Made by a program: the position numbers and the translations under genes
DNA from: an uncultured Candidatus Rokubacteria bacterium
Lineage (GTDB): Bacteria > Methylomirabilota > Methylomirabilia > Rokubacteriales > CSP1-6
Direction: 5' to 3'
Assembly: GCA_963789955.1 (NCBI GenBank)
Contig: CAWBMV010000001.1
Location: forward strand, 96,001-160,000
DNA length: 64,000 bases
Shown: positions 14,937 through 55,254 of the stretch, one piece after another
How the letters are laid out: every line of letters starts with the position of its first letter
Position numbering within the stretch: position 1 is the first letter of the stretch
Notes under the pieces: model-generated
The model's input: only the letters and a program-made list of their open reading frames with translations
Told to the model about the DNA's origin: nothing
Database searches by the model: none

Positions 14937-14971
14937 GACCCGCGCTCGCTGAGATAAGAGAGAGGATCCCC

Positions 14972-40044: not shown

Positions 40045-40793
40045 GCCATCGCGCCGCCGTCGACGGTGTAGATCCCGCCGGTGATGTACGTCGCGTCGGG
40101 GCTCGCCAGGAACGCCACGAGGGCGGCGACCTCTTCGGGCGCGCCGTAGCGACGCATCGGGATGGTCGCGGTGAGTCGCTCCCGCTTGATCTCGGTCTCG
40201 AGCTCTTGCGCCATCGGTGTCTCGATCGGCGCCGGGCACACGGCGTTGACGCGAATGTTGTGGCGCGCCAGCTCGAGCGACGCGGCGCGCGTCATGCCGA
40301 CGACCGCGTGCTTGCTCGCGGTGTAGGCGATGATGTTCGGCGAGCCGCGCAGACCCGCGATCGACGCGGTGTTCACGATGGCCCCGCCGCCGCGCGCGCG
40401 CATCAGCGGCGCGACCACCTTCATCCCGAGCCAGACGGCCTTGAGGTTGACGGCGATCACCCGGTCGAACGTCTCTTCGGGATAGTCGACCAGCGGCTTC
40501 AGCGCGCCGAGCACGCCCGCGTTGTTGAAGAAGACGTCGATGCCGCCGAACCGCTTCACCGCCGCGTCGGCGTATTTCTGCACCTCCGCCAGCTTCGTCA
40601 CGTCGGCCTCGACGGCGTGCACCTCGCCGTCGACCTTCTCGACCGCGGCCACGCTCTGCCGGAGCGCCGCCGCGGCCAGATCGACGACCACCACGCGCGC
40701 GCCCTCGGACGCGAAGCGCACGGCGGCGGCACGACCGATGCCACCGGCGCCTCCGGTGACGAGCACGACCTTCCCGGTGAATCTCGCCGCCAT
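40041..40793 (-). CDS. Short-chain dehydrogenase/reductase
   Basis: TGGAGGIG, FNNAG, YTASKH. Confidence 0.92.
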   Translation of the reverse strand: MAARFTGKVVLVTGGAGGIGRAAAVRFASEGARVVVVDLAAAALRQSVAAVEKVDGEVHAVEADVTKLAEVQKYADAAVKRFGGIDVFFNNAGVLGALKPLVDYPEETFDRVIAVNLKAVWLGMKVVAPLMRARGGGAIVNTASIAGLRGSPNIIAYTASKHAVVGMTRAASLELARHNIRVNAVCPAPIETPMAQELETEIKRERLTATIPMRRYGAPEEVAALVAFLASPDATYITGGIYTVDGGAMA

Positions 40794-40844
40794 GTCAGGC
40801 GCCATCTTGCTCTTGGCGCCGACTCGACGCAAGCTTGGGGCGCC

Positions 40845-41322
40845 ATGACCGAAGACGAGGGCTTGAAAGCGCTGCTCGGGGACGACGCGGCGGCGGCGGC
40901 GCGCGCCGAGGCCGCGCTGTGGGAGATGTGGCATCGTTCGGGCGATCGCGAGGTCGATGCGCTCCTGCGCGAGGGCATCACCCTCATGGAGCGGCGCGAC
41001 CTGCTCGCGGCCGAGGCGATCTTCGCCCGCATGATCGCGCAGGCTCCCGCGTTCGCCGAAGGCTGGAACAAGCGCGCGACCGTGCGCTACGTCGCCGAGA
41101 ACTACGAAGGCTCGATCTCCGATTGCGAGGAGACGCTCTCGCGCAATCCTCATCACTTCGGCGCGCTGGCGGGCGCGGGGCTCTGCTACATGGCGCTCGG
41201 ACGGCCTCGCGAGGCTGCTGGGATGTTTCGTCGGGCGCTCGCGGTGCATCCTCGGCTTGGGCGGAGCCCGGCAGAATCTTGCCGTCGCTCTTGGGGAAGC
41301 CGTGCGCGGTAACGGTCACTGA
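40845..41322 (+). CDS. TPR-repeat protein (3' frameshift)
   Basis: LWEMWHRSG, PAFAEGWNKRAT, NPHHFGALAG. Confidence 0.82.
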
Positions 41323-41331
41323 GCTTGGTGG

Positions 41332-41495
41332 CGGGGCGCCGGGGCGGGGGTGTGCGGGAGGGGTCGAGCTGACCACGCGGCACGCGTGCGCTGCTCCGCG
41401 GCGGCTGGGCTCCATCCGGGCGCGCGTCGTCCGCCGCTCGCTTGGAGGGAACGGGTCCCTCGACCCCTCCCGCACACCCCCGCCCCGGCGCCCCG
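41332..41495. repeat. 164-bp element with perfect 37-bp terminal inverted repeats (MITE/REP-like)
   Basis: 41332-41368 is the exact reverse complement of 41459-41495. Confidence 0.9.
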
Positions 41496-41607
41496 ACTCT
41501 CCGTCTCGCCTAGTCCAGTAGCGAGCGACTCGGTCCAGCTGTGAGCAATCTGAGCGGCGGTTGGCGCTGCCGGCCTGGTTTTGCGTGCGCCCGTCGAGCC
41601 CGGGCGC

Positions 41608-42120
41608 TCAGCGCGCGCGGTAGTCACGGTGCCAGAGGTTGAGGTAGTCGCGGGCGTTTTGGAGGATGTCTTCGAGCTCGGCGGCGTCCATTTTTCGGAT
41701 GGGCTTGGCCGGGACGCCCATGAAGAGCCAGCCGGCGGTCACGATCTTGCCCGGCGGGACCAGGGCGCCGGCGCCGACCTGCGCGCCCTCCTCGATGACG
41801 GCGCCGTCCAGGACGACCGCGCCGATGCCGATGCGCACATTGTTCATGACCCGGCAGCCGTGGACGACCGCGCGGTGGCCGATCGTGACGTTGTCGCCGA
41901 CGATGCACGGAAACTCGGGCCTGACGTGCAGCACCGAGTTGTCCTGCACGTTCGAGTTCCGACCGAGCGTGACATAGTTGTCCTGGTCGCCGCGCAGGAC
42001 CGCGAAGGGCCAGACCGAGGCGCCGGCGGCGATCGTGACGTCGCCGATGACGGCCGCCTGCGGATCGACGTACGCCTCGGGATCGATTCGTGGCGAGCGA
42101 CCGGGTACCGAGCGGATCAC
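41608..42120 (-). CDS. Gamma carbonic anhydrase / hexapeptide-repeat family protein
   Basis: VLRGD, SNVQDNSVLH, TIGHRAVVHG. Confidence 0.9.
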   Translation of the reverse strand: MIRSVPGRSPRIDPEAYVDPQAAVIGDVTIAAGASVWPFAVLRGDQDNYVTLGRNSNVQDNSVLHVRPEFPCIVGDNVTIGHRAVVHGCRVMNNVRIGIGAVVLDGAVIEEGAQVGAGALVPPGKIVTAGWLFMGVPAKPIRKMDAAELEDILQNARDYLNLWHRDYRAR

Positions 42121-42154
42121 GCGTGCCCTCCGGGAGTGGAAATAGCGCGAGTGG

Positions 42155-42162
42155 ATTATACT
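42155..42162. promoter_or_regulatory. Overlapping divergent -10 elements
   Basis: TATAAT on minus (42160-42155) and TATACT on plus (42157-42162), between divergent genes. Confidence 0.5.
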
Positions 42163-42191
42163 GACGCGCGCACGGGAGGAGACCCAGCAAG

Positions 42192-43233
42192 ATGATCGCG
42201 CAGACCGCCGAGGTCCGTGAAGCCCACCGGTTCGACGTGGCCGCGCTCGAGCGCTACCTGCGCGCCCACGTCGACGGCTTCAGCGGGCCGATCGAGGTGC
42301 GCCAGTTCCGGGGCGGCCAGTCCAATCCGACGTATCACCTCGTCGGCCGGCGGCCGCGAGTACGTGCTGCGGCGGAAGCCGCCGGGCAAGCTCTTGCCCT
42401 CCGCGCATGCGGTCGACCGCGAATACCGGGTGATCACGGCGCTCGGCAAATCCGGGTTTCCCGTGCCGCGCACCTTTGTCCTGTGCGAGGACGATTCGGT
42501 TATCGGCACGGCGTTCTACGTGATGGACTGCGTGCACGGTCGGATCTTCACCGATCCGGCGATTCCCACCGTCACACCGCGCGAGCGCCGCGCCATCTAC
42601 GAGTCGCTGATCGACGTGCTGGCGCGTCTGCACACCGCCGACTGGCAGGCGCTCGGCCTCGCCGACTTCGGGCGGCCGGGTAACTATTTCGCGCGTCAGA
42701 TTCACCGCTGGACCCAGCAATACCGCGCGTCGGAGACCGAAAAGATCGAGTCGATGGAGCGACTCATCCCGTGGCTGCCGGAGCACATCCCCGCCGGTGA
42801 CGAGACCACGCTCGTCCACGGCGATTTCAGGCTCGGGAACACGATCATCCACCCGACCGAGCCGCGGGTCGTCGCCGTGCTCGACTGGGAGCTGTCGACC
42901 CTGGGCCACCCGCTCGCGGACCTCGCCTACTTCTGCCTGCCCTATCGGTTCACGCGCGAGTGGGAGGGGCTCGCCGACAAGGATCTGACGGAGCTCGGGC
43001 TCCCGAGCGAGGCCGAGTACGTCGCCGACTACTGCCGGCGCGCCGGGCGCGGCACCATCGGCGACTGGGAGTTCTCTCTCGCGTTCGCCATGTTCCGGCT
43101 GGCCGCGATCGCCCAGGGCATCATGGGACGTGTGGTCGCGGGGACCGCGAACGATCCGAATGCCCAGGAGCGCGGCCGGCGCGCACGCCCGCTCGCCGAC
43201 TCGGCCTGGGCGCTGATCTCCTCGCGCGCCTAG
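42192..43233 (+). CDS. APH-family phosphotransferase (ACAD10/11 kinase-domain-like); frameshift ~42345
   Basis: QFRGGQSNPTY, LLPSAHAVDREY, VHGDFRLGN, VLDWEL. Confidence 0.9.
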
Positions 43234-44357
43234 TAGTCGTAGAGGCGTTCGATGGTGAGGCCGCTTCTTCCCAGGTCGGCGACCACTCCGTTCAGGGATC
43301 TGACGGGCGCCTTCACCGCGATTCGCTGGGCGGCCGGATTCGTCAGGAGCGGTTCCGTCGCGAGAATCTCGCCGGTCTCGAGCCGAAAGTTCAGGGCGCT
43401 CGGCGCGATCACGGTCAGCAAGATTTCGTCGTTGCCGGCGATCTCGCGGAAACGTACGCCTTGCTTCACCAGCTCCGCGACGAGCGGCGTGAAGGCATCG
43501 CGGCGCGGCATGGCGATGACGTAGGACCGGTCGCCGAGCGCCTTGATCTTGCGGATCCGATGGTCGCTGAAGATGCGGTCGGGCACGTCGTCGACCCAGG
43601 CATAGATGACCAGATCCTCCGGCCGCTGAGCGTTCCGCGTGCCGAGCCGGACGATCTCCGCGTAGACCGCCATCAGCGCGTACTCCGCGCTCAGGGTGAA
43701 GCGCCGCTCCCACTTGCGGACGACGTCGAGGCCCCACAAGGGTGTTTCCTTCCACAGGGCTTCGAGACGCTCGGCGAACGGAAACTCGTACCAGGGCGCC
43801 GTGCGCACGAACTCGGCGTACTGGCCGGCGGTCTTGCGCGCGAACACGTCCTCCTCGGTGTGGTAGAAGCCGATGCTCTCGGTGACCACGCCGACCGTGT
43901 TCTCGTACGCGCCCTTGACGGTGTTGTCGAGCGTGAAGGCCAGACCGGTGAGCCCGAGGATCACGTGCGCGCGCGCGTCGAACGGGTAGATGCGCTTGGT
44001 CCCCCCGCACGAGCTCGCGTAGTACCGCCAGTACTGCCGGATCGCCGCGAAGTACGGAAACCGGCTCGGGGCGTGAGACGTGACGAACGTCGCGTACTCC
44101 TCGGCGTTGTACACGACGTACCACGCGGGCAAGGTGAGGAAGGTCGACGACCCGTTTCGGCGGTAGCCGGGCACGTCGACGGTGGCGCTGACGAGCTCGG
44201 GCGATCGCTCGCGCGGCTGGATGCGCACGCTGAAGCAGTGTTCGCCGATGAATCGGGCGGGGACCGCGACGGCGATCAGGCCGAGCACGGCCACCGTCGC
44301 AACCGCGAGCACGACGAACGTTCCGATGCGTCGCCGGGACCGACTCCGACGAGCCAC
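43230..44357 (-). CDS. Hypothetical membrane-anchored protein
   Basis: 375-aa ORF with N-terminal TM helix, aromatic-rich, coding-like codon bias. Confidence 0.7.
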   Translation of the reverse strand: MARRSRSRRRIGTFVVLAVATVAVLGLIAVAVPARFIGEHCFSVRIQPRERSPELVSATVDVPGYRRNGSSTFLTLPAWYVVYNAEEYATFVTSHAPSRFPYFAAIRQYWRYYASSCGGTKRIYPFDARAHVILGLTGLAFTLDNTVKGAYENTVGVVTESIGFYHTEEDVFARKTAGQYAEFVRTAPWYEFPFAERLEALWKETPLWGLDVVRKWERRFTLSAEYALMAVYAEIVRLGTRNAQRPEDLVIYAWVDDVPDRIFSDHRIRKIKALGDRSYVIAMPRRDAFTPLVAELVKQGVRFREIAGNDEILLTVIAPSALNFRLETGEILATEPLLTNPAAQRIAVKAPVRSLNGVVADLGRSGLTIERLYDY

Positions 44358-44408
44358 TACGGTAAGGTCTCGTCTCCTTCGAGGTTGGTGCTACCGGAGA
44401 GTCTTATA

Positions 44409-45015
44409 TCACGGCCGTGCGTCGGACGGCGGACCTTGTTGGGCCGACGCATGCGCGGTGACCACGTAGCGCAGCGGACCGCCGGCCACGAGCGCGTCGA
44501 ACGGATAGCAGGTCATCAGCACGAGCGCGGCTGACTCCGGGCTCCGTGCGGATCACGGCGGATCTCGAGTCGACGACCGAGAGCTCGTCCACTCGAAATC
44601 GCCCGCTCGGCCGCCCCGGCACGTCGACGAGGATCTCGTCGCCCCGCTGCAGCCGCTCGAGAAAACGAAAGTGCGTGTCGCGATGCGCCGTCACGATCGC
44701 GGTCCCCGGCTCGCCGGGCGCGGCACTCTGCGGCGCGTGGCCGGGACCGAACGCGAGGGTGCGGCCGCTCACGCCCGTGAGGACGATGAGGTCGACGCCG
44801 TGAGCCGGCACCCGCAGCCTCGCGACCGGCCACGTGTCGGCCCACGGCCACGGCTTGGAGGCCGGCTCGCCCCGGAGCGTGCGCGCCCACGCCCGCTGCA
44901 AGAGGTACTGCGCGAGCTGGGCCTTGGCGTGGATCCACGCGCCGTGGCCCAGCTCCCACGCGCCGAGCGCGGCGAGCAGGGCCACGGCGACGACGATGAT
45001 GCTGCGGCGGTTCAG
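44409..45015 (-). CDS. Class GN (proteobacterial-type) sortase; frameshift ~44530, start uncertain
   Basis: TM anchor, IHAKAQLAQYLL, KPWPWADTWPVARL, LAFGPGH; catalytic H (AHRDTHF), C (LMTCYPF), R (GPLRY). Confidence 0.9.
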
Positions 45016-47069
45016 ATCTTCCTCGGGTGCCGAGCGCGCCGAGCCGCGGCGGCGAGGACCGCCGCGAGCAGGCAGGCCACGAGGCCGAGCATGACGTGGA
45101 CGGGTGCGTCCGTCGCGCCCTGACCCAGACCGAAGACCGCGGTGTAGTCCCAGCCGTCGGGAAGATTCGTCTTCAGCGCGTGACTCTCGAGTGACTGGTC
45201 TCCCGGGCGGACCGGGGTGACGTCGACGGCGACGAGGCTCGTGTACGGGCTCACCAGGTGGTACGTCAGCGCGAGCTCCAGCACCGAGTGACGGATCTCG
45301 TCCTCGGACGTGCCGGTGCGGCGCCGGTCGAGGAGCGCCGCGATCTTTCCGCTCGCCCAGTACGAAGAAAGGCCGGCGCCCTCGCCGGTCGGGTGGAGCG
45401 TCAGCACGCGCTCCCACACCTCGACGCCGAGGCGACCGCGCAGCACGACCCGCGACGGTAACGCCGGCGCTCTCAGCGCGACGGTGATCGGCTCGCCGAG
45501 ATAGACATCGGGGATCCGCTCGGGCACGATCTCGGCCCCGGCCACGGGCTCGATCTCGACGTCGGTCAGCGCCGGCGCCTCGAGCTTCGCGAAGAGCGTG
45601 ACCATCTTCTCTTTGACCTCGTTGATGCTGCCGATATAGGTGAACGTGCCGCGCCCGACCCGCGCGGCCTCGCGCATGAAGTGGCTGTTGGGCGCCGAGC
45701 CGATGCCGATCGTGAAGAGCCGGCTGTCGCCGAGCCGCTCGTGGATGGCCGCGAAGAGCTGCTGCTCGTTGCCGACCGCGCCGTCGGTCAGGAAGATCAC
45801 CTGCCGCAGACGGCCTGGATGCTCGCGGCCGTCGAGGGCCTGCTGGAGCGCCGGCAGCATTTCGGTGCCGCCGTCGGCGTGAATCCGGCCGACGTAGCGG
45901 TTCGCCGTCGCCAGATTCGGTTGCGTCGCGGCCTGCGCCGCCGCGAACACCGCGTCCGTCGTGTGGTTGAACCGAATCACGTTGAAGGTGTCGCCGGGCT
46001 TCAGCCGCTCGAGCGCGAGCTTCAGGGCGGCCTTGGCCTGATCGATGGACGCGCCGGCCATCGAGCCTGAATTGTCGAGCACGAAGATCACCTCGCGCGG
46101 CAGGCGAAGCCCGTCGAGCGCGCCCGGCGCGGGCGGTGTCACCATGAGAAGGGCGAAGGTCTCCGCGCCTTTCCGCTCGGTGAAGAGCGTGGCGATCGGC
46201 GTGGCTTCGATCGACGGTTGCCAGACCAGCTCGAAGTCGCGATCCGCGGGCACCGTGCCCTGGGCGAGCTCGATCCGGTAGCGCCCGTCGGCCAGCGGCG
46301 TCGTGTGGACCGCGTGATACGAGGCCGTCAGCCGCGCGAGCGGTGTCCCCGGATCCAGCTCGACCGCGAGGCTGACGGGATTCAGCGGGCCCCGCGACGG
46401 GTGCTCGACCGGGGGCGTGATCCGCGAGGCGTCGGGCACCTGGACCGTATCGGACGACCAGCCGGTGCCGCCGGACGGTCCGGGCACCGGTGCGCCCGGG
46501 ATGTAGCGTGGACCCACCACCATCGGGAAGCGCAGACGGAACTGGCCCGAGTCGTATCGAACGGTCTGCTGGTACTCGATCTCGATCGTGATCGCGGCAC
46601 CGGGCGCGATGTTCGCGACCGACGTCGTGAAGATGTTGGGCCGCTCCTGCTCGACGAGGCTCGCGCGCCGGCCTTCGTGCTTCGCTTGCTCGTACTGCGC
46701 CTTGGCCGCCGCCCGCTCCTGAATCACGCCCTCGATCAACCGGTCGCCGACCTTCATGCGGAGATGGTCGACCGCGGCGTCCTCGGGCAACGGGAAGACG
46801 TAGATGCCCTCCGCCCACGCGGCGCTGGGGTTCGTGAACTCCTGACGAACGCTCGCCCGCGCGACGATGCCGGTCACGACGATGTTGACGTCGGTCTTGA
46901 GCGTCGGCGCCGGGACGGGCGTGCTCTGCTCGGCGCTTCGCCAGAACAGCGTGCCCTCGGTGACGCGGTCCGTACGTCCACGCGCGTCACCGGCGACCTC
47001 CGCCCTGGCGGCCGAAGCCGCCAGGACGAAGATCAGACTGACGAGGATCAGTCCTCGAACGCACCGCAT
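45012..47069 (-). CDS. VIT + von Willebrand A domain protein, sortase target
   Basis: Signal peptide; VIT (YVFPLPEDAAVD, EQERPNIF); MIDAS DNSGSM and FLTDG; C-terminal LGQGAT + TM helix + basic tail. Confidence 0.9.
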   Translation of the reverse strand: MRCVRGLILVSLIFVLAASAARAEVAGDARGRTDRVTEGTLFWRSAEQSTPVPAPTLKTDVNIVVTGIVARASVRQEFTNPSAAWAEGIYVFPLPEDAAVDHLRMKVGDRLIEGVIQERAAAKAQYEQAKHEGRRASLVEQERPNIFTTSVANIAPGAAITIEIEYQQTVRYDSGQFRLRFPMVVGPRYIPGAPVPGPSGGTGWSSDTVQVPDASRITPPVEHPSRGPLNPVSLAVELDPGTPLARLTASYHAVHTTPLADGRYRIELAQGTVPADRDFELVWQPSIEATPIATLFTERKGAETFALLMVTPPAPGALDGLRLPREVIFVLDNSGSMAGASIDQAKAALKLALERLKPGDTFNVIRFNHTTDAVFAAAQAATQPNLATANRYVGRIHADGGTEMLPALQQALDGREHPGRLRQVIFLTDGAVGNEQQLFAAIHERLGDSRLFTIGIGSAPNSHFMREAARVGRGTFTYIGSINEVKEKMVTLFAKLEAPALTDVEIEPVAGAEIVPERIPDVYLGEPITVALRAPALPSRVVLRGRLGVEVWERVLTLHPTGEGAGLSSYWASGKIAALLDRRRTGTSEDEIRHSVLELALTYHLVSPYTSLVAVDVTPVRPGDQSLESHALKTNLPDGWDYTAVFGLGQGATDAPVHVMLGLVACLLAAVLAAAARRARHPRKI

Positions 47070-47077
47070 GGATCGGA

Positions 47078-47668
47078 CTACCGATCGCCGGCCGGCGAGG
47101 TGGACTCGGCCGGCACCGCGGCGGCGAGCTTGCGAAACTCGAGGTGCACCCGGCGGTTGATCTCCTGGCACTCCTTGCCAGGGTCGTCGCACAGCGACCC
47201 GTCCGGTCCCATCGTGACCATCTTGATCGCCGGCTCCGGGACGCCCAGGTCGACGAGGAAGCGCTTCACCACCTGAGCCCGACGCTGAGCCAGGCCGCGG
47301 TTGTACTCGGCCGGGCCCTGGTTATCGGTGTAGCCCTGGACCATCACGACCCACGAGTTGGTCAGGTCCATCCGTCCCGTCGTCTCCTGGAGCACGCGGG
47401 CCGCGTCGGCGCGAAGGCGCGTGCTCTTGAAGTCGAAGTAGACGTCGGCGTGGAAGACTCCCGCCGGCGGCGCGGGAATCACGGCACGAGGGCCCGTCGG
47501 CGCCGCGGCGCCCTTTCCCGTATCCGCGCCCGTGCCGGACGCCGCCTCGACCCCTTGCGAGTGAACCCAGTACGTTCCGATCGCTCCGGCGATCACCGTG
47601 AAGAGGATCCCGACGAGGATCACCAGCTCCTTCACACCACCGATCTCCTTCCGCTGCATCTCGCCCAT
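47078..47668 (-). CDS. OmpA C-like peptidoglycan-binding protein with N-terminal TM helix (PdsO-like position)
   Basis: VYFDFKS, QGYTDNQGPAEYNRGLAQRRAQVVK, NRRV. Confidence 0.85.
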   Translation of the reverse strand: MGEMQRKEIGGVKELVILVGILFTVIAGAIGTYWVHSQGVEAASGTGADTGKGAAAPTGPRAVIPAPPAGVFHADVYFDFKSTRLRADAARVLQETTGRMDLTNSWVVMVQGYTDNQGPAEYNRGLAQRRAQVVKRFLVDLGVPEPAIKMVTMGPDGSLCDDPGKECQEINRRVHLEFRKLAAAVPAESTSPAGDR

Positions 47669-47760
47669 TGGCCCTGTCCCTTCTTTCTCGAGACGTCGTG
47701 CGTCTCGTTGGTCGGGTCGCTCGTGCCGCCTGTACGGCCGGCGCCCGGCTCGAGATGCAG

Positions 47761-47776
47761 AGCAACGCGCACGCCA
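47761..47776 (-). promoter_or_regulatory. Sigma54 (-24/-12) promoter for the ompA-like/VIT/sortase operon
   Basis: TGGCGTG-CGCG-TTGCT with correct GG-N10-GC spacing, ~93 bp upstream of ATG 47668. Confidence 0.75.
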
Positions 47777-47863
47777 CGCCGGCCGTACGCGTTCGTGGTG
47801 CGGGAATGCAACGACTTCGAGAGACTTGGGCGTGCGAAGTGGCGGGCGGCCGATCGACGGGAC

Positions 47864-47887
47864 GCGGGGAATCCCCGCATCCCCGCA
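47864..47887. promoter_or_regulatory. Candidate upstream activator sequence
   Basis: Palindrome GCGGGGA-A-TCCCCGC plus an extra ATCCCCGCA copy, ~90 bp upstream of the sigma54 site. Confidence 0.5.
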
Positions 47888-47914
47888 CGGCTCCCGCGCT
47901 GACCGGGCGAGCGG

Positions 47915-50419
47915 TCAGACCTTGGCGGTCGGCGAGCGGCGGTCGAGGTGCTGGCGGACGAGGAGCTCCAGCGAGCGGAAGTGGCGCTCGGGGAGGTTCT
48001 TGAAACGCTTCCGGCAGGCGGCGACGGCCTCGTCCGGCGAGCTGAAGCCTTCGACCACCCTCAGCAGGTGGTCGGAGTATTCGCGGAGCTTCAGCTCGAC
48101 CGTCCGGCCGAGCGCCGGGTCGCCCGCCAGGGCCAGGGCGGCCTTGCCGCGATCACCCTGCGCGTCGACCAGGGCCCGGAACCCGAGGCCCTTGAGCCGC
48201 TGGGTCACCGTGCTGCGATCCCAGCCGAGCGCGCGCGCGGTGGCCTGCATGTCGAAGCCGTGCTCGCGCAGGGAGGTCAGGACGGCCTCGTCGCCTCCGG
48301 AATCATCGTGGCTCTGCTCCCGGGCCGGAAGACGCAGGTCGGCGACCGTGAGGGCGGCGCCGTCGGCCAGAGCCAGCGCCTGGCGCAGACAGTTCTGGAG
48401 CTCACGGGCGTTGCCGGGCCAGTCGTTCCGCTCGAGCGCGGCGAGCGCGGCCTCGGACAGGGGCAGGGGCGGTCGTCCGACCTCGGCGGCGGCCTCGCGG
48501 ACGAAGCGCGCGGCCAGGAGCGAAACGTCCCGCGGCCGCTCGCGCAGCGGCGGCAGCCGCAAGACGAGCCCCTTCAGGCGGAAATAGAGATCCTCGCGGA
48601 ACCACCCCTCGGCGCTGCCTCGCTCGAGATCGCGATTGCTCGCGGCGACGATACGCACGTCGACGGTGGTCGGGCGGGTTCCGCCGACGCGATAGAAGCT
48701 CTTGTCCTGGAGCACCCGCAGGAGCTTGCTCTGGTGCTCCGCTCGGAGCTCGCCGACCTCGTCGAGGAAGATCGTTCCACGGTTGGCTTGCTCGAAGAGC
48801 CCTTTCCGGTCGGCGACCGCGCCCGTGAAGCTGCCGCGAACGTGGCCGAACATCTCGCTCTCGAAGAGCTCGGCGGGGATCGCGCCCATGTTGACCGCGA
48901 CGAACGGCGCCTCGGCGCGCGCGCTCAGCCGGTGGGCCGCCCGAGCGAACAGCTCCTTGCCGGTGCCCGGCTCGCCGGCGAGGAGGATCGGCAAGGCGGA
49001 GCGCGCGGCCTTCTCGAGGTCGCGGAAGAGCGCGAGCATCGCGGGATCGCGGGTGACGATGCCAAGTCGTTCGGCCTCGCGCTGCAGGCGCTCGAGCTCC
49101 GCGTCGCCGAGCGGCGCCTCGCCGACGTCGGCGGCGCTCGCCGCCCGCACGCGCTGCTCCAGCTCTTCGAGCCGGGCGCGTGTGCGCTCTTCCTGGTCGC
49201 GCGCGGCCGCGAGCTGCGCCCGCAACGCCGCCTCACCACCGCTCGATCGAGCCACCGCGGCTCGCGCCGCTTCCAGGTCTTCTTCGAGCGCCTCGACCGC
49301 CGACTCTTGACGCACGAGGCCCTCGCGGATCGCCGTGACTTCGCCCTCGAGATGGCGAACCCGGTAGGCCGAGCCGATCTGGGTCCAGACGAGCGCGCTC
49401 GCCGAGGCAACAGCCGTCGCGAGCAGCGGGATCGCTACCGGCAGGAGAAGGCCGATGATCGACGCCGCGAGTGCGACGCTCACGATGTAGCCGAGGGTCA
49501 GGACGGCGCCCGCGATCCCGGCCTTCCACCATCTGGCCGTCAGCCAGAGCCACGCCGCCAGGGCCGAGAGCAGGATGCTGCCGAGCACGGTCACCGGGAT
49601 TGGTGTTTCTCTCAGCCACGTGCCCGCCCGAGCCCTGTCGAACAGCCGCGCGTGAACGAGGGTCCGAGACATTCCAGCCCGGGGCTCGGCCAGGACGAGC
49701 ACGGTCCTGTCGGCGACCAGGCTCCGGAGCGCTTCCGGCTGGCGCTCTTCGATCGGAGACCAGATGTCGGCAAAGTTGACGACCTGGACGCGCGGTATTC
49801 GCGAGCCTCCCGTGGCCACCAGCACCTGTCCGTGTCGATCGACCGGGATTCGAGCGGTATCGACCTTCGTGAGCGCGGCGGCCAGCGCCAGGCCGTATGC
49901 GGGCACTCGTCGCTCGCCCACGCGGACGAACAGCGGCACTCGCCGAACGACGCCGTCGAGATCGGCGACGGTGAGCGTGTGCCCCACGCCGTTCGCGTGC
50001 TGCGCGAATGCCGGTAGCGATGCGGGGGCGGCGGGCTCGAGCGTGATCGCGAGCACGACGTTCTCCGCGTGCGCGATCGCCTGACTCAGGAGCACATCGC
50101 TCGCGGCGCCGCCGCGGCCCGGCGCGCTCGGCTGGTCGAGCGAGGCCTCCAGACCGATGACGGCGGCACCAGCCTGGGACAGCCCCGTGACGAGACGGGC
50201 GAGCACCGTTCGATCCCAGACGCCCTGGCCAAACCGGGATTCGCTCGCCGGGTCACGAACGACCACGATCGGCGGCTGGCCCGAGGGCTGCCGCACGGGA
50301 AGCCACTCGTAGACAGACCACTCGAACGCGGCGACCGCTGCGCCGTCGGACAGGGCCGCGCCGGCGGCGAGAGCGGTGGCTACCAGTGCGATCACCGCGG
50401 CCAGCGCCACGGTTCTCAT
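47915..50419 (-). CDS. Membrane-bound CHASE2-domain sigma54-dependent transcriptional activator
   Basis: CHASE2-like (WDRTVLARLV, DLDGVVRRVPL), 3 TM helices, coiled coil, GEPGTGKE, GSFTGA, FLDEV, WPGNAREL, HTH. Confidence 0.9.
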   Translation of the reverse strand: MRTVALAAVIALVATALAAGAALSDGAAVAAFEWSVYEWLPVRQPSGQPPIVVVRDPASESRFGQGVWDRTVLARLVTGLSQAGAAVIGLEASLDQPSAPGRGGAASDVLLSQAIAHAENVVLAITLEPAAPASLPAFAQHANGVGHTLTVADLDGVVRRVPLFVRVGERRVPAYGLALAAALTKVDTARIPVDRHGQVLVATGGSRIPRVQVVNFADIWSPIEERQPEALRSLVADRTVLVLAEPRAGMSRTLVHARLFDRARAGTWLRETPIPVTVLGSILLSALAAWLWLTARWWKAGIAGAVLTLGYIVSVALAASIIGLLLPVAIPLLATAVASASALVWTQIGSAYRVRHLEGEVTAIREGLVRQESAVEALEEDLEAARAAVARSSGGEAALRAQLAAARDQEERTRARLEELEQRVRAASAADVGEAPLGDAELERLQREAERLGIVTRDPAMLALFRDLEKAARSALPILLAGEPGTGKELFARAAHRLSARAEAPFVAVNMGAIPAELFESEMFGHVRGSFTGAVADRKGLFEQANRGTIFLDEVGELRAEHQSKLLRVLQDKSFYRVGGTRPTTVDVRIVAASNRDLERGSAEGWFREDLYFRLKGLVLRLPPLRERPRDVSLLAARFVREAAAEVGRPPLPLSEAALAALERNDWPGNARELQNCLRQALALADGAALTVADLRLPAREQSHDDSGGDEAVLTSLREHGFDMQATARALGWDRSTVTQRLKGLGFRALVDAQGDRGKAALALAGDPALGRTVELKLREYSDHLLRVVEGFSSPDEAVAACRKRFKNLPERHFRSLELLVRQHLDRRSPTAKV

Positions 50420-51699
50420 TGCGAGGGTGGGACAGCCTCGGGGGCGATCGAGATCTCCTGGAGGAGCCGCTGGGCGTCTTCGTGCGGTGTCGACTTCAGG
50501 AGGCTGATCGCGCGGGCGGTGTCCTTCGGCACGCCGAGCCCCGCGGCGTAGACCTTCGCGAGGGTGATCCGGGCTCGCACTTGCCCCTCGTCCGCGGCGG
50601 TCTTGAAGTAGCCCAGGATCCGCGCGTCGTACGGAGCGATCTGGGCAGGAGCGCCGTGATAGTAGAGCTCTTCCAGGAGCGCCTGTGCCGGCTCGCTGAA
50701 GGCGAGCGCCTCGGAGATCAGCACGGGCACCGCGTCGGCGCCGCGGCCCTGCCGGAGCAGCGCGCCGCCGACCGTGTCGTCGTCGCCGGTTCGCGTCAGC
50801 TCCGGGTAGTCGCTCCAGAGCCCGGTTCGATAGTCTCGAAAGGCCTGCTCGATCGCGCGACGCTCGGCCGGCGTGCGCCGGGTCCTGCCGAGGGCCGTCT
50901 GCCGCAGCTCGCCGAGGGCGGCGGCGGCCTCGAGCGAGCCCTGATCGGCCGCGCGCGACCACCACGCGATCGCGCGCGCGGTGTCGGGCTCGACGCCGAG
51001 GCCCCTCGCGTACGCGATGCCCGCGAAGAACTGCGCCCGAGGGTGCCCCGCGCGCGCCGCGACCACGAATTCCGGCGTCGCCTCGGCGTCGCGATGGGTC
51101 AGCTTCAGCACGAGGGCCAGGTTGTAGCGCACGTCCGGTTGGTCAGGGCTGCGGGAAATGGCCTGGCGGTACGCCTCGATCGCCCCGTTCAGATCGCCGA
51201 GCGCGTAGCGCACGAGCCCGAGGCTGTAGAGCGCCGAAACCTGATCCGGTTGCCGGCGGAGGACGTCTTCGAGCTCGGAGCGTGCGGCGGGCCAATCCTG
51301 CTTCGCCATGAGCGCCGTGGCGAGGACGTACCGCGCGCGCACGGCGTCCGGCCGCTGGCGCAGGAGGGCCCGAAGCTCCTCGACGGCGCCGTCGAGGTCG
51401 CCCATCTCGTAGAGGGCGAGCCCGAGATTTTCTCGCGCGTCGGCGAGATCGGGCTGAAGGCGGAGCGCCTCGCGAAACGATGCCGCAGCGGTCGCCGCGT
51501 CGCCGCGCGCCATCGCCGCGCGACCGAGCGCCAGATGCTCGCGGGCCCGTACCTCACGCGGTGACCCGCTCGCGGCCGAGGTGGCCGGCGCGGGATCGCC
51601 GATGGCGCCGGTTGGAGTCGTCGAGCGCGGAGCGCTGCCGGTCGAGCACCCGGTTCCGATCGCGGCGAGGAGCGCGAGGCTGACGGTCGTCGAGCGCAT
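50416..51699 (-). CDS. TPR + Sel1-like repeat lipoprotein
   Basis: Lipobox GTGC; tandem TPRs; Sel1 repeats (AQFFAGIAYARGLGV, LAKVYAAGLGVPKD); ATGA overlap with the activator gene. Confidence 0.87.
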   Translation of the reverse strand: MRSTTVSLALLAAIGTGCSTGSAPRSTTPTGAIGDPAPATSAASGSPREVRAREHLALGRAAMARGDAATAAASFREALRLQPDLADARENLGLALYEMGDLDGAVEELRALLRQRPDAVRARYVLATALMAKQDWPAARSELEDVLRRQPDQVSALYSLGLVRYALGDLNGAIEAYRQAISRSPDQPDVRYNLALVLKLTHRDAEATPEFVVAARAGHPRAQFFAGIAYARGLGVEPDTARAIAWWSRAADQGSLEAAAALGELRQTALGRTRRTPAERRAIEQAFRDYRTGLWSDYPELTRTGDDDTVGGALLRQGRGADAVPVLISEALAFSEPAQALLEELYYHGAPAQIAPYDARILGYFKTAADEGQVRARITLAKVYAAGLGVPKDTARAISLLKSTPHEDAQRLLQEISIAPEAVPPSQ

Positions 51700-51763
51700 A
51701 GGCAACTTCCGATGATAGCAAAGCGGTCCGCGGGAACCTCAGGGCGGGATCGTGCGCGCGGCA

Positions 51764-51808
51764 GGCCGTCGCGCCGTCTCGCGGATCATCCGAGACGGCG
51801 CGACGGCC
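51764..51808. terminator. 18-bp perfect stem-loop between thiolase and TPR genes
   Basis: ggccgtcgcgccgtctcg-cggatcatc-cgagacggcgcgacggcc. Confidence 0.65.
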
Positions 51809-51828: not shown

Positions 51829-53016
51829 CTAGCGGTACGCCTCGAAGAGACCCGCCGCGCCCTGGCCGCCGCCGATGCACATCGTCACCACGCCGTAGCG
51901 CGCCTTGCGGCGAAGCAGCTCGTTGGCGAGGGTGCCGACCATGCGCGAGCCGGTCATGCCGAACGGGTGGCCGATCGAGATCGAGCCGCCGTTGACGTTG
52001 AGCTTCGCCGGATCGATGCCGAGACGATCGCGGCAGTAGATGACCTGCGAGGCGAACGCCTCGTTCAGCTCCCACACGTCGATGTCGTCGATCTTGAGGC
52101 CGTGACGCTTCAGGAGCTTGGGCACCGCGTACACGGGCCCGATGCCCATCTCGTCCGGCTCGCAGCCGGCGACCGCGAAGCCGCGGAAGACGAGCTTCGG
52201 GCGAATGCCGAGGGCCTTCGCGCGATCCATCGACATCACGAGCGTCGAGCTGGCGCCGTCGGAGAGCTGCGAGGAGTTGCCGGCGGTCACCGTGCCCTGA
52301 CCGGAATCCTTGTCGAAGTGCGGCGGCAGCTTCAGGAGCCCTTCGAGCGTCGTGTCCGGGCGATTGCACTCGTCCTTCTCGACGTAGTACGGCTCCTGCC
52401 CGACGACCGCGCCGGTCGTCTTGTCGAGGATGCCGCGCGTGACGTTCATCGGCGCCAGCTCTTCCTTGAAGAAGCCTTCCTGCTGGGCGCGCGCGGTGCG
52501 CTGCTGGCTCAGGAGCGCGTAGCTGTCCTGGGCCTCGCGGCTGATCTTGTAGCGCTTGGCGACGACCTCGGCCGTGTCGCCCATCACCATGTAGATGCCC
52601 GGCAGGTGCTCCTTCACCCACGCGTTCGGGTCGCTGTCGCGCTTGCCCATCGTGATCGACTCGACGCCGCCGCCGATGACCGCGTCGGCGCCGTCGTTGA
52701 TGACGTAGTTCGCGGCGATCGCGATCGACTGCAGGCCCGAGGAGCAGAAGCGGTTCAGGGTGAGCCCCGCGACCGACACCGGGAGCCCGGCGCGCATCGC
52801 GGCGACGCGGGCGATGTTGTGGCCCTGCGAGCCGTGCGGCTGGCCGCAGCCCATGATCACGTCCTCGACCTCTTTCGCGTCGAGCTGCGGCACCTTGCCG
52901 AGGACGTCCTTGATGGTGTGCGCGGTGAAGTCGTCGGGACGCGTCAGGTTGAACGCGCCGCGGAACGACTTGGCGAGCGGGGTCCGCGAGCTGGCGACGA
53001 TGACGGCTTCTCTCAT
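51829..53016 (-). CDS. Acetyl-CoA C-acyltransferase (thiolase)
   Basis: NRFCSSGL, NEAFA, GHPFGMTG, MCIGGGQG. Confidence 0.95.
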   Translation of the reverse strand: MREAVIVASSRTPLAKSFRGAFNLTRPDDFTAHTIKDVLGKVPQLDAKEVEDVIMGCGQPHGSQGHNIARVAAMRAGLPVSVAGLTLNRFCSSGLQSIAIAANYVINDGADAVIGGGVESITMGKRDSDPNAWVKEHLPGIYMVMGDTAEVVAKRYKISREAQDSYALLSQQRTARAQQEGFFKEELAPMNVTRGILDKTTGAVVGQEPYYVEKDECNRPDTTLEGLLKLPPHFDKDSGQGTVTAGNSSQLSDGASSTLVMSMDRAKALGIRPKLVFRGFAVAGCEPDEMGIGPVYAVPKLLKRHGLKIDDIDVWELNEAFASQVIYCRDRLGIDPAKLNVNGGSISIGHPFGMTGSRMVGTLANELLRRKARYGVVTMCIGGGQGAAGLFEAYR

Positions 53017-53050
53017 GTAGAGTCTCCTTTTCGGTGGCCCGTCCGAGGGG

Positions 53051-53114
53051 CGGCCCGGCTACGCCGGGCCGTCTCCGAGCGCGGGGGGCTTGGGGGGCCC
53101 TTCGAGGCCCCCCA
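53051..53114. repeat. Double GC hairpin (REP-like)
   Basis: cggcccggc-tac-gccgggccg (53051-53071) and tggggggcc-cttcga-ggcccccca (53091-53114). Confidence 0.6.
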
Positions 53115-53119
53115 TGAAG

Positions 53120-53471
53120 TCAAACGGCCGCGGTGGCCATGATCTCGACGAGGTACTTCGGCGACGCCAGCCGCGCCTCGACGGTCGCCCGCGCCGGCGT
53201 GTTGGCGGGATCGACCCAGGCGTCCCAGGCCGCGTTCATGTCCCCGTAGACTCCCATGTTGGCCACGTACACCGTGGCGGCGAGAAGCTTCGACTTGTGG
53301 CTCCCGACCGCCGCCAGGGTCTCGTCGATCTTCTTCAAGAGAGATCTGTTGTGTCTGGCCCTTGGCGTCCGCCGACGGATCGGCCGCCACCATGCCGGCG
53401 AGGTACACGGTGTCGCCGTGAACAACCGCCTGGCTCAATCGAGGTCCGACACCGTGCCGCTTGATGGTCAT
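53120..53471 (-). CDS. RidA/YjgF family protein; frameshift ~53345
   Basis: RLSQAVVHGDTVYLAG, MNAAWDAW, PARATVEARLA, LVEI. Confidence 0.88.
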
Positions 53472-53558
53472 CGTGCTGGTCCTTTCTGCTCCGGAAATGG
53501 GGGGTCCTTGAACGGTACGGGAGATCATACTCCGACCGGGCCGCCGGATAAACTCGCC

Positions 53559-53587
53559 TTGCACCGGTCCCGGGCTCTCAGTAGAGT
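53559..53587 (+). promoter_or_regulatory. Sigma70-type promoter
   Basis: TTGCAC, 17 bp, TAGAGT; 9 nt before ATG 53597. Confidence 0.6.
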
Positions 53588-53596
53588 TATGCACCC

Positions 53597-54025
53597 ATGA
53601 GCATCGTCAACGAGTTCGAGAAGGCCTTCAATCGGCAAGACGTGGGCGCGCTGGTCTCGTGCTTCACCGAGGGCGCCAGCTACCGCGACAACTTCTACGG
53701 CGAGCACCGGGGGCACGCCTCGCTCCGCGCGATGTTCGAGCGGATGTTCCGGGAGGGCCGGGACTACCGCTGGGTCATGGACACCGTGGTCGAGGCGGGC
53801 AACCGGGCGACCGCCGAGTGGACGTTCGGGTACGTCGTGACCGACGCGGTGCCGCGGAGCACCGGCCGCAAGATCGGGTTCAGGGGCATGAGCCTCTTCG
53901 AGCTCGAGCGCGGGAAGATCGCGAACTATCGCGAATACTTCGACGTGGGCCAGGCGCTCCTGCAGCTCGGGTTCGCCCCCGAAGGCATCGCAAAGGTCCT
54001 GCGTCGCAAGCTCGAGGGGCACTGA
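53597..54025 (+). CDS. NTF2/SnoaL-like protein
   Basis: AFNRQDV, FRGMSLFELERGKIANYREYFD. Confidence 0.85.
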   Translation: MSIVNEFEKAFNRQDVGALVSCFTEGASYRDNFYGEHRGHASLRAMFERMFREGRDYRWVMDTVVEAGNRATAEWTFGYVVTDAVPRSTGRKIGFRGMSLFELERGKIANYREYFDVGQALLQLGFAPEGIAKVLRRKLEGH

Positions 54026-54026
54026 G

Positions 54027-54519
54027 ATGGCGCTCGATCGCGCGAAGCGACAGGCGCTCATCCAGCAGTACGCCGATGGTCCCGCTCGCCTCCGCGCGGC
54101 GCTCGGCAAGGTGCCGCCGCCGGCGCTCAAGTGGCGGCCGGCACCGAACGAGTGGTCGGCTCACGAAGTGATCTGCCACTGCGCCGACTCGGAGACCAAC
54201 GCCTACGCGCGCATCCGGTTCCTCGTCGGCCGAGAAGAGCGCGAGCATCCAGGGCTACGACGAGGCCAACTGGGCGAGGGTGTTCGCCTATCACGACTTG
54301 CCGCTCGAGCCCGCGCTCGCCGTGGTCGAGGCCGTGCGCGCGACCACCGCCGCGCTGATCCGCGGCTTGCCCGACGATGCGTGGACGCGGGTCGGGACCC
54401 ACACGGAGTCCGGGCGCTACGGCGCCGAGGATTGGCTGCAGATCTACGCCGATCACCTCGAGATCCATTCGCGACAGATCGAGAACAACCTCGAGCTCTG
54501 GAAGAAGCAGCCGCGCTAG
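54027..54519 (+). CDS. DinB family protein; frameshift ~54235
   Basis: WSAHEVICHCADSE, HLEIHSRQI. Confidence 0.85.
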
Positions 54520-54531
54520 CGCGGCCGGCCC

Positions 54532-55254
54532 TCAGCCCCGTACGAGCAGCACCAGCCCCGAGAGCAGGATCATCACGAAGATCAGCTGACGGAAGCGACG
54601 CGGGTCCACGCGGTCGAACAGGAGCACGCCGGCGATCGCGCCGGCGGCCGCGGGCGCCGCGAATCCCAGGGTGAGACTCCACACCTGGCGCGTGAGCAGC
54701 CCGGCCCACCAGTAACCGATCAGGATCGCGCCCTGGTTCACGACGAAGAAGGCCTGGAGGTTGGCCTTGACGGCCCGCGCGCTCCAGCCCTGCGTCGCCG
54801 CGTACAGCACCGCCGGCGGGCCGGGCAGGCCGACGGCGCCGCCGATCGCGCCGGCGAGGACTCCGGCGCCGACGCCCCACCGGCGACCTTCGAGCTTGCG
54901 AGGATAGAGCCCGCGCGCTTCGAGCACGAACGCGACGACGAGCATCAGGCCGATGAGACGATTCAAGGCGCTCGGGGGTAGCGCGGCGAGTCCCCACACG
55001 CCGAGCGGCGTGCCGGCGATCGTCCCGATCAGGAGATCGAGGATCGCGCGCGGCTCGACGTCGTGCCGGAGCTGAACGAGCATCGCCGCCGACATGACGG
55101 CGGCGTAGATCGTCAGCAGCACGATCGCGTCCGAGGCCGACATCAGATACGGCAGGAAGGCGAGCGCGATCAGCGCGATCCCGAAGCCGGCGAGCCCCAT
55201 GACGAAGCTCGCCGCGGCGATGACGGCGGCGGCCACCGCCCACGCGACCGTCAC
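54532..55254 (-). CDS. Sulfite exporter TauE/SafE family membrane protein
   Basis: GLAGFG and GLPGPP motifs, multiple TM helices. Confidence 0.82.
   Translation of the reverse strand: MTVAWAVAAAVIAAASFVMGLAGFGIALIALAFLPYLMSASDAIVLLTIYAAVMSAAMLVQLRHDVEPRAILDLLIGTIAGTPLGVWGLAALPPSALNRLIGLMLVVAFVLEARGLYPRKLEGRRWGVGAGVLAGAIGGAVGLPGPPAVLYAATQGWSARAVKANLQAFFVVNQGAILIGYWWAGLLTRQVWSLTLGFAAPAAAGAIAGVLLFDRVDPRRFRQLIFVMILLSGLVLLVRG

What the first reader, a model, noticed from the sequence alone, without database searches (positions are those of the whole stretch)
44409..51808. Self-contained sigma54-controlled dedicated sortase system driven by a membrane CHASE2 activator and a TPR/Sel1 lipoprotein
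Seen: five co-oriented genes, bounded upstream by an 18-bp hairpin. A TPR/Sel1 lipoprotein is coupled by ATGA to a CHASE2-3TM-coiled-coil-AAA+-HTH activator. A -24/-12 promoter and palindrome follow, then an OmpA-like protein, a VIT-vWA protein with a sorting-signal-like tail, and a class GN sortase with H/C/R triad. Known: the proteobacterial dedicated sortase system pairs a GN sortase, a VIT/vWA target and OmpA-like PdsO with the two-component pair PdsR/PdsS, and its function is uncharacterised. Inference: here a one-component transmembrane sigma54 activator, perhaps modulated by the lipoprotein, replaces PdsRS, giving an envelope-sensing circuit that induces sortase-mediated anchoring in a probable diderm.
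Basis: partly seen in the sequence, partly recalled or inferred. Interest (0 to 1): 0.85.

Follow-up and report, generated by a model that had tools for sequence, protein, structure and literature searches.

The report
Membrane sigma54 switch for cell-wall tether
Two groups of soil and water bacteria share a membrane-spanning gene activator, a partner protein and a conserved DNA palindrome that together likely switch on a protein predicted to tether the inner membrane to the cell wall, with the sortase genes as optional cargo, probably in response to cell-wall damage.

Summary
The five genes, the ATGA overlap, the 18-bp hairpin and the -24/-12 site are real. The sortase is frameshifted between its His and Cys/Arg motifs, most likely an assembly error. 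The system is not dedicated to the sortase. Of 43 activator-positive genomes in the window's phylum, 42 hold the ompA-like gene and 23 a full sortase target. Complete Nitrospira moscoviensis has the TPR gene, activator and ompA-like gene but no target. A palindrome, ATGCGGGG-N3/4-CCCCGCAT, precedes a -24/-12 promoter of the ompA-like gene in both phyla. It follows that gene up to 2.1 Mb from the activator, keeps about 10.5-bp phasing, and occurs in 25 of 43 activator-positive and 0 of 138 activator-negative genomes. The OmpA-like protein fails the PdsO model and is predicted to be inner-membrane anchored. Three sister-family genomes place the same sortase pair beside a PdsR/ChvG-like two-component system instead. 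The Shewanella sortase target is now known to give cell-wall-antibiotic tolerance (PMC13712847). Verdict: a new regulatory variant, likely a cell-wall-damage response; the signal and the TPR role are untested.

The parts
51764..51808 (.). 18-bp hairpin after the thiolase stop; no U-tract; likely the 3' end of the thiolase transcript
   Evidence: Similar stems in the same gap of 8 of 9 same-genus relatives; the arm has only these 2 exact copies in the genome
51712..51720 (-). Extended -10-like element TGCTATCAT, predicted housekeeping promoter of the TPR-activator pair
   Evidence: TGCTAT(C/G)AT in 8 of 9 same-genus relatives, a variant in the ninth; 29 TGnTATVAT sites in the 6.8-Mb genome
50416..51699 (-). 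TPR/Sel1-repeat exported protein, 427 aa; lipoprotein-type signal with Cys18 here, no lipobox in Nitrospirota
   Evidence: upstream of the activator in 26 of 28 full-length loci, the other two starting at a contig end
47915..50419 (-). Membrane sigma54 activator, 834 aa: TM, CHASE2, three TM helices, coiled coil, AAA+ (GEPGTGKE, GSFTGA, TIFLDE), Fis-type HTH, and an unassigned conserved 85-aa C-terminal extension
47862..47888 (-). Enhancer-like palindrome ATGCGGGGATTCCCCGCGT (47880-47862) plus an extra upstream half-site; predicted activator binding site
47761..47776 (-). sigma54 -24/-12 promoter TGGCGTGCGCGTTGCT, 95.5 bp from the palindrome centre
   Evidence: the only 1 of 105 loose palindrome hits in the genome with a promoter behind it
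47078..47668 (-). OmpA-like protein, 196 aa: single N-terminal membrane anchor, linker, OmpA_C domain with invariant C160/C167; the near-invariant target gene
46997..47032 (-). 16-bp RNA stem inside the VIT signal-peptide codons; predicted 3' stabiliser or attenuator of the ompA-like message
   Evidence: (z -4.4 for the 121-nt region)
45012..47069 (-). VIT-vWA sortase target (TIGR03788), 685 aa; optional cargo
45111..45128 (-). Non-canonical sorting motif LGQGAT before the C-terminal membrane helix and basic tail
44409..45015 (-). Class GN sortase (TIGR03784), apparent CTG start overlapping the VIT stop; one extra base at 44532-44534 splits the frame in this assembly

Best explanation
The locus encodes a membrane-spanning sigma54 activator that likely binds a conserved palindrome to switch on a predicted inner-membrane-to-peptidoglycan tether plus interchangeable envelope-protection cargo (here the VIT-vWA protein and its sortase), probably when the cell wall is damaged, with the TPR/Sel1 protein as a likely periplasmic modulator.

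Steps and their status:
(1) The TPR and activator genes are expressed from a housekeeping extended -10 promoter (inferred from conservation).
(2) The periplasmic CHASE2 domain, probably held off by the TPR/Sel1 protein, passes a signal through three helices and a coiled coil to the AAA+ domain (architecture shown; signal and TPR role inferred).
(3) The HTH binds ATGCGGGG-N3/4-CCCCGCAT, DNA loops to the -24/-12 promoter and sigma54 polymerase opens it (motifs, phasing and co-occurrence shown; binding inferred, about 0.9).
(4) The main product is the OmpA-like tether. A hairpin at the start of the VIT gene would favour it over read-through into the cargo (inferred).
(5) The cargo would protect the inner membrane during wall damage, as SO2195 does in Shewanella (by analogy, about 0.6).
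For: Regulation:
- Palindrome and promoter together in 51 of 62 ompA-like upstream regions, against 0.15% of 18,252 background windows.
- Palindrome in 27 of 34 regions fetched after the pattern was fixed.
- Strict palindrome in 25 of 43 activator-positive and 0 of 138 activator-negative genomes.
- It precedes the ompA-like gene 0.55, 1.0 and 2.1 Mb from the activator, and is absent from the fetched 10 kb around two of those activators.
- Seven spacing classes from 51.5 to 114 bp fit a 10.5-bp period (R 0.81, p 0.0014).
- Recognition helix WDRSTVTQRLKGL in 141 of 152 sequences; Walker A/B and GSFTGA intact. GSFTGA is listed among variants expected to activate (PMC4641369, passages).
- rpoN and five HU/IHF-family genes in the genome.

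Target:
- ompA-like gene in 42 of 43 and in 19 of 21 strong activator genomes.
- Its fold matches peptidoglycan-binding OprF/Pal domains.

Function:
- SO2195 (TIGR03788) is induced with pdsO by the peptidoglycan-damage sensor PghKR and gives beta-lactam and D-cycloserine tolerance (PMC13712847).
- The alternative regulator in family f4 is PdsR/ChvG-like.
- Alpha-2-macroglobulin genes follow the ompA-like gene in 3 of 19 target-less genomes plus one further relative, two with PBP1C or a remnant of it.
Against: - No experiment exists on any component, and no CHASE2 ligand turned up in my paper searches.
- The stress function rests on analogy with Shewanella, whose PdsO is not the orthologue of this OmpA-like protein.
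- In 16 of 19 target-less genomes no alpha-2-macroglobulin or PBP1C gene follows the ompA-like gene.
- The ompA-like gene was not found in G263 or G349, nor in 3 of 5 further activator-positive genomes, with only a partial hit in a fourth. In those three the activator lies at a contig end.
- G080 has an internally deleted ompA-like gene but intact VIT and sortase genes.
- The two regions furthest from their activator (L107, L108) hold the palindrome but miss the strict promoter pattern.
- Spacing classes were drawn after seeing the data, and the genomes are kin.
- Four distant CHASE2-sigma54 activators have other neighbours and no TPR, so the architecture alone does not imply wall stress.
Confidence: 0.55

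Rival explanations
1. Feedback version, like YfiBNR. The OmpA-like protein is also the sensor: on wall damage it sequesters the TPR/Sel1 protein away from CHASE2, so the circuit amplifies itself.
For: TPR, activator and ompA-like gene form the near-invariant trio while cargo comes and goes. In YfiBNR a peptidoglycan-binding OmpA-like protein sequesters a periplasmic inhibitor of a membrane signalling enzyme (PMC4887326, abstract). YfiB chains are among the fold matches.
Against: YfiB ranks below OprF and Pal matches and is an outer-membrane lipoprotein, whereas this protein has an N-terminal membrane anchor. The TPR protein shows no sign of YfiR kinship. G080 keeps the circuit with a broken ompA-like gene.
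Confidence: 0.15
2. The same regulatory wiring, but the input is not wall damage. CHASE2 senses surface contact, a neighbour or an outside protease or ligand, and the output remodels the envelope for attachment or defence, as proposed for PrsK/PrsR/PrsT with PEP-CTERM sorting.
For: PrsR (sigma54 activator), PrsK and the TPR lipoprotein PrsT track a sigma54 enhancer upstream of sorted proteins (PMC1569441, passages). Alpha-2-macroglobulins are protease traps (recalled). Distant homologues sit beside trypsin-like and WD40-caspase proteins.
Against: PrsR and PrsT models are far below cut-off (278 vs 503; 70 vs 312). The only tested homologue of the cargo acts in wall stress (PMC13712847). The palindrome-promoter pair marks a single target in this genome.
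Confidence: 0.15
3. One reading: a self-contained circuit whose purpose is to induce sortase-mediated anchoring of the VIT-vWA protein.
For: Target and sortase follow the ompA-like gene closely wherever both are on one contig. The f1 targets form one clade, 100/100. Six target-less same-genus copies keep a VIT signal-peptide stub, so the pair was ancestral in that genus.
Against: No target was found in 19 of 43 own-phylum and 9 of 21 Nitrospirota activator genomes, including a complete one. The motif is [LMA]GQGAT in 14 of 14 intact f1 tails. In Shewanella it is open whether SO2195 needs the sortase at all (PMC13712847).
Confidence: 0.1
4. The palindrome is an RNA hairpin or the site of another regulator, and the activator is only a neighbour.
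For: In the own phylum it lies just behind the activator stop, where a terminator would sit.
Against: It moves with the ompA-like gene when the two separate, keeps helical phase to the promoter and carries extra direct-repeat half-sites. It is absent from 138 of 138 activator-negative genomes.
Confidence: 0.05

Closest known systems
Proteobacterial dedicated sortase system (pdsO, TIGR03788 target, class GN sortase) under PghKR / PdsSR in Shewanella
   Same: Gene order OmpA-like, VIT-vWA, GN sortase; target and sortase pass their models. In S. oneidensis the cluster is induced by the adjacent peptidoglycan-damage sensor PghKR (PMC13712847); in S. algae the adjacent pair is called pdsS/pdsR (PMC11580497). 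That these are the same pair is my inference from gene order.
   Different: The regulator is a membrane sigma54 activator with a TPR partner, not a histidine kinase and OmpR-type regulator. The OmpA-like protein fails TIGR03789 and has a membrane anchor. The sorting motif is LGQGAT. The sortase pair is optional.
PrsK/PrsR/PrsT with PEP-CTERM/EpsH exosortase
   Same: A sigma54 activator, a TPR lipoprotein and an enhancer plus -24/-12 site controlling sorted envelope proteins (PMC1569441).
   Different: Two-component with a receiver domain, many targets and an exosortase. PrsR and PrsT models are not met.
YfiBNR of Pseudomonas aeruginosa
   Same: Trio of a peptidoglycan-binding OmpA-like protein, a periplasmic partner and a membrane one-component output (PMC4887326).
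   Different: Output is transcription, not c-di-GMP. The partner is TPR/Sel1. The OmpA-like protein is a transcriptional target and is predicted to be inner-membrane anchored. No interaction was tested.
ExoR-ChvG/ChvI (ExoR-ExoS/ChvI)
   Same: A periplasmic Sel1-repeat protein beside a sensor. ChvG-ChvI responds to cell-wall stress (PMC9731437, title and abstract start in the search listing); repression by ExoR is recalled. The f4 alternative kinase is ChvG-like.
   Different: ExoR model not met (23.5 vs 450); the sensor here is CHASE2 fused to an AAA+ activator.
NtrC/NifA-class bacterial enhancer-binding proteins
   Same: AAA+ core matches NtrC1, FlrC and FleQ structures.
   Different: No receiver or GAF domain; membrane-embedded with a periplasmic CHASE2 domain; extra C-terminal helical extension; no named NCBIfam equivalog reached.

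Membership tests
Proteobacterial dedicated sortase system (Pds) | Class GN sortase, TIGR03784 above cut-off, with His/Cys/Arg | tested here: met
   165.9 vs 158.25 on the N-terminal frame alone; an intact relative scores 207; the frameshift is absent from contigs of 3 of 4 runs
Proteobacterial dedicated sortase system (Pds) | VIT-vWA target, TIGR03788 above cut-off | tested here: met
   770.4 vs 551.65
Proteobacterial dedicated sortase system (Pds) | LPxT-type sorting motif before the C-terminal helix | tested here: not met
   LGQGAT here; [LMA]GQGAT in 14 of 14 intact f1 tails; LPxT in 6 of 8 Nitrospirota tails
Proteobacterial dedicated sortase system (Pds) | PdsO, TIGR03789 | tested here: not met
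   35.8 vs 152.2, OmpA domain only
Proteobacterial dedicated sortase system (Pds) | Adjacent PdsS/PdsR two-component pair | tested here: not met
   None among the five genes or the two flanking genes. The PdsS/ChvG-like kinase of family f4 was not found in G000 or 67 other activator-positive genomes. TIGR03785/03787 were not scanned genome-wide
sigma54 enhancer-binding protein | AAA+ domain with Walker A/B, GAFTGA-type loop and HTH | tested here: met
   GSFTGA in 145 of 152 sequences
sigma54 enhancer-binding protein | Cognate enhancer and -24/-12 promoter; rpoN in the genome | tested here: met
   (sequence evidence only)
sigma54 enhancer-binding protein | ATP- and RpoN-dependent activation | not testable with these tools
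   Needs a reporter or in vitro transcription
PrsK/PrsR/PrsT | PrsR (TIGR02915) and PrsT (TIGR02917) above cut-off | tested here: not met
   277.5 vs 502.6; 70.2 vs 312.2
YfiBNR-like tripartite system | YfiB equivalog (NF053585) | tested here: not met
   54.3 vs 128
YfiBNR-like tripartite system | The periplasmic partner binds both the sensor and the OmpA-like protein | not tested

The most novel reading that the evidence does not exclude
Rokubacteria and Nitrospira share an undescribed one-component cell-wall-damage response: a membrane-embedded CHASE2-AAA+ sigma54 activator gated by a TPR/Sel1 protein, which its own target, a peptidoglycan tether, sequesters in a feedback loop. Its promoter works as a docking site for swappable innate-immunity-like cargo (inter-alpha-inhibitor-like VIT-vWA plus sortase, or alpha-2-macroglobulin with PBP1C). 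It would replace PghKR/ChvGI and give CHASE2 a defined input.
Probability: 0.2. Interest if true: 0.82.

Novelty: new variant of a known kind. Interest (0 to 1): 0.6.

Why it matters
It gives a regulator, a binding site, a promoter and a target for an envelope circuit in two environmentally important lineages, one with cultured members, so every step can be tested.

An AAA+ sigma54 activator that must oligomerise and loop DNA while embedded in the membrane is an unusual design. I found no paper on a CHASE2-sigma54 fusion.

A transcriptional read-out would make the CHASE2 input directly assayable. The repeated loss of the sortase pair and the changed sorting motif bear on the open question of what diderm sortases do (PMC13712847).

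Tried and rejected
- Tandem second HTH in the C-terminal extension: hhalign matched only the overlap between slices; Atlas hits were all under 0.9. Left unassigned.
- Structure for CHASE2: no sequence match in the PDB. Fold searches of the full model were filled by the AAA+ domain, so CHASE2 and the extension were barely tested.
- TPR-CHASE2 complex prediction: not available; no verdict.
- Search of protein representatives with the C-terminal domain: never returned a result.
- 12-bp inverted repeat around the promoter as the regulatory palindrome: not conserved.
- A larger regulon in this genome: 1 of 105 loose palindrome hits has a promoter. The loose pattern gave many chance hits and was not used for counts; 100 of its matches were not listed.
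- The first promoter pattern had a wrong spacer and was replaced.
- Rfam: no match. Generic sigma70 scan: none.
- Expression: RNA run X15 holds contigs over the locus, but contigs cannot show transcription.
- Spread to Myxococcota: 1 of 301 genomes, on a 3.3-kb contig 78% identical in this domain, possibly misbinned.
- Direction of transfer between the phyla: the VIT tree's deep nodes are unsupported (L094 left out).
- Literature on the Rokubacteria envelope: nothing relevant among the 12 papers listed.


Full report
Observation. The five minus-strand genes are real: TPR/Sel1 protein 50416-51699, activator 47915-50419 (ATGA overlap), OmpA-like 47078-47668, VIT-vWA 45012-47069 and sortase 44409-45015. 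Pfam gives CHASE2, Sigma54_activat, AAA lid and HTH_8 on the activator, and OmpA, VIT plus vWA and Sortase on the others. NCBIfam passes the target (770 vs 552) and the GN sortase (166 vs 158) but not PdsO (36 vs 152). The sortase His lies in one frame and Cys/Arg in another. Contigs of runs X1, X5 and X15, 3 of 4 laid, lack one base at 44532-44534, 26 of 29 sortase rows have all three motifs in frame, and BamA is also split in this assembly. I read the break as an assembly error.

Host. Named closest homologues are Rokubacteria MAGs. The genome has BamA, LpxC, RpoN and five HU/IHF-family genes, so it is a diderm with sigma54. Of 80 loci kept, the first 28 match beyond the AAA+ core; their titles are Rokubacteria, Nitrospirota, one Myxococcales MAG, one 'Nitrosospira' MAG and one unclassified record.

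What is conserved, own phylum. In 181 genomes the activator's C-terminal domain is in 43, all in family f1. Of these, 42 hold the ompA-like orthologue, 36 within 600 bp; the exception, G080, has an internally deleted copy. The TPR orthologue is in 39; in the four misses the activator match lies near a contig end. A full TIGR03788 target is in 23, one more is cut by a contig end, and 19 have none found.

What is conserved, Nitrospirota. In 181 genomes the activator domain is in 25, 21 strong and 4 distant. Nineteen of the 21 have the ompA-like gene and 12 the target, one of them in pieces. All 11 above-cut-off targets in that sample lie within 550 bp behind the ompA-like gene of an activator-positive genome. 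The complete N. moscoviensis chromosome has TPR, activator and, about 11 kb away, the ompA-like gene, but no TIGR03788 match. Against this, the ompA-like gene was not found in G263, G349 and 3 of 5 further genomes, and only partly in a fourth. Six target-less same-genus copies keep a stub of the VIT signal peptide, so there the pair was lost, not never gained. The stable core is TPR, activator and ompA-like gene; the sortase pair is cargo.

The binding site. Alignment of upstream regions showed a conserved -24/-12 element and, upstream of it, ATGCGGGG-N3/4-CCCCGCAT, often with extra half-sites. In 62 ompA-like upstream regions (L012 and L115 appear to be one region; L142 was dropped as too short, L096 and L143 as partial) the promoter is in 56, the palindrome in 57 and both in 51, against 0.15% of 18,252 background windows. 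Those patterns came partly from the same regions. The pattern fixed beforehand hit 27 of 34 later-fetched regions. A strict genome-wide search found the palindrome in 25 of 43 activator-positive and 0 of 138 activator-negative genomes, each time just behind the activator.

The site belongs to the target gene. In Nitrospirota it follows the ompA-like gene 0.55, 1.0 and 2.1 Mb away from the activator; the two furthest lack the strict promoter pattern. The 51 palindrome-promoter distances fall into seven classes (medians 51.5, 62, 73.5, 86, 95, 105 and 114 bp) that fit a 10.5-bp period (R 0.81, p 0.0014 in 100,000 draws), as a looping enhancer would. The classes were set after the fact and the genomes are kin. 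In G000 only this site, of 105 loose hits, has a promoter behind it. The recognition helix is identical in 141 of 152 activators across both phyla, matching the constant site.

The proteins. The activator model (mean pLDDT 81, pTM 0.44) shows an N-terminal helix, an alpha/beta CHASE2 domain, three membrane helices, two long coiled-coil helices, the AAA+ core and a helical C-terminus; the core matches NtrC1, FlrC and FleQ. GSFTGA is among loop variants expected to stay active (PMC4641369, passages seen). The OmpA-like protein has one N-terminal hydrophobic helix, a low-confidence linker and a domain matching peptidoglycan-binding OprF, Pal and OmpA domains, with two invariant cysteines; I infer an inner-membrane tether. 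The TPR protein has a lipobox-position Cys in 14 Rokubacteria rows and none in 20 Nitrospirota rows, so export rather than lipid anchoring is what is kept. The f1 sorting motif is [LMA]GQGAT in 14 of 14 intact tails, against LPQGAT or LPKTAT in f4 and LPxT in 6 of 8 Nitrospirota tails; whether it is still cleaved is open. A 16-bp stem in the VIT signal-peptide codons is 99% paired in 13 same-genus copies, with three pairs changed on both sides (3 of 500 shuffles on covariation; kin, so modest evidence). It is kept after VIT loss.

Function. PMC13712847 (abstract, sections 8 and 11 and passages read; figures and supplements not seen) shows that the peptidoglycan-damage sensor PghKR induces pdsO-SO2195-SO2196, and that SO2195, a TIGR03788 protein, preserves envelope integrity and gives tolerance to beta-lactams and D-cycloserine. 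It notes homologues beside sortases in Nitrospiria; its Fig. 7B, which I could not see, may show neighbours of these. PMC11580497 (passages) links a pdsS mutation to strong induction of pdsO, target and sortase.

Two genomic observations point the same way. First, three f4 genomes carry the VIT-sortase pair divergent from a two-component system whose best models are PdsR and ChvG/PdsS, all below cut-off (one copy scanned, the others 82-89% identical). That kinase is in 0 of 68 activator-positive genomes and the activator in 0 of 14 f4 genomes. Second, alpha-2-macroglobulin genes follow the ompA-like gene in 3 of 19 target-less genomes and one more relative: with PBP1C in L091, as a deleted remnant in L086, starting about 20 bases after the stop in L137, and as a DUF2138-DUF1175-macroglobulin run abutting the stop in L131. 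Only the last two are tightly coupled, and 16 of 19 show no such cargo.

Mechanism and verdict. Shown: architecture, intact catalytic motifs, a conserved phased enhancer-promoter pair, the co-occurrence pattern and two mutually exclusive regulators of the same cargo. Inferred: binding and activation (about 0.9), cell-wall damage as the input (about 0.6), and the TPR protein as a periplasmic repressor by analogy with ExoR (recalled) and YfiR (PMC4887326, abstract). It works like the Shewanella Pds/Pgh module but is not a member, since PdsO, PdsRS and the LPxT motif are not met. It resembles PrsK/PrsR/PrsT in using sigma54 and a TPR protein (PMC1569441, passages). None of the 25 papers listed of 70 contains CHASE2, and searches gave no description of this fusion; subscription journals are mostly outside the library. 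New variant of a known kind; interest 0.6.

Noticed in passing
window 43230-44357 (-) and 44396-44415: 375-aa membrane-anchored protein with no Pfam or NCBIfam hit, often next to the module in same-genus genomes, near DUF4383 and an FAD-binding gene. A TGATATAA extended -10-like element precedes it, so it probably has its own promoter.
   Followed up: partly
L119:165-6560, L120:4-7467, L121, L122: Distant CHASE2-sigma54 activators with the same C-terminal extension in other Nitrospirota, without the TPR or ompA-like gene. Their neighbours are DUF4384 proteins and WD40(-caspase) proteins (L119, L122), or LPP20 and trypsin-like proteins (L120).
   Followed up: partly
L081:3000-20000: G014 carries three palindromes, two ompA-like copies and a partial second activator, with unrelated genes inserted between them.
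   Followed up: partly
L005:1477-4257 and 7214-16067: Two tandem TPR genes precede the activator, and what look like CRISPR-Cas genes follow it; only a partial ompA-like hit elsewhere in that genome.
   Followed up: no
L105:4117-4587, L113:2896-3435, L008:15053-15262, L017:16105-16191: Sortase genes or fragments directly behind the ompA-like gene with the VIT gene gone, suggesting stepwise decay of the cargo in Nitrospirota.
   Followed up: partly
window 45013-45015; L081, L092: The sortase appears to start at CTG in a CTGA overlap with the VIT stop in three related genomes, where other relatives have ATGA or GTGA; this may lower its translation.
   Followed up: partly
L095:1-2826 and L081:10971-13561: Runs of related unknown proteins (starting MAAKT.. 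or M..KNIAKT..) inserted on the same strand right behind the ompA-like gene; the one scanned had no Pfam hit.
   Followed up: partly
window 39143-43233 and 53013-54674: Several neighbouring genes look frameshifted in the ORF list (an epimerase-like, a phosphotransferase-like, a RidA-like and a DinB-like gene; names recalled), consistent with indel errors in this assembly.
   Followed up: no
L144:3977-6658, L098:3650-6448: A DNA ligase D-like gene and a Ku-like gene (names recalled from sequence) lie beside the two-component system and VIT-sortase pair in family f4.
   Followed up: no
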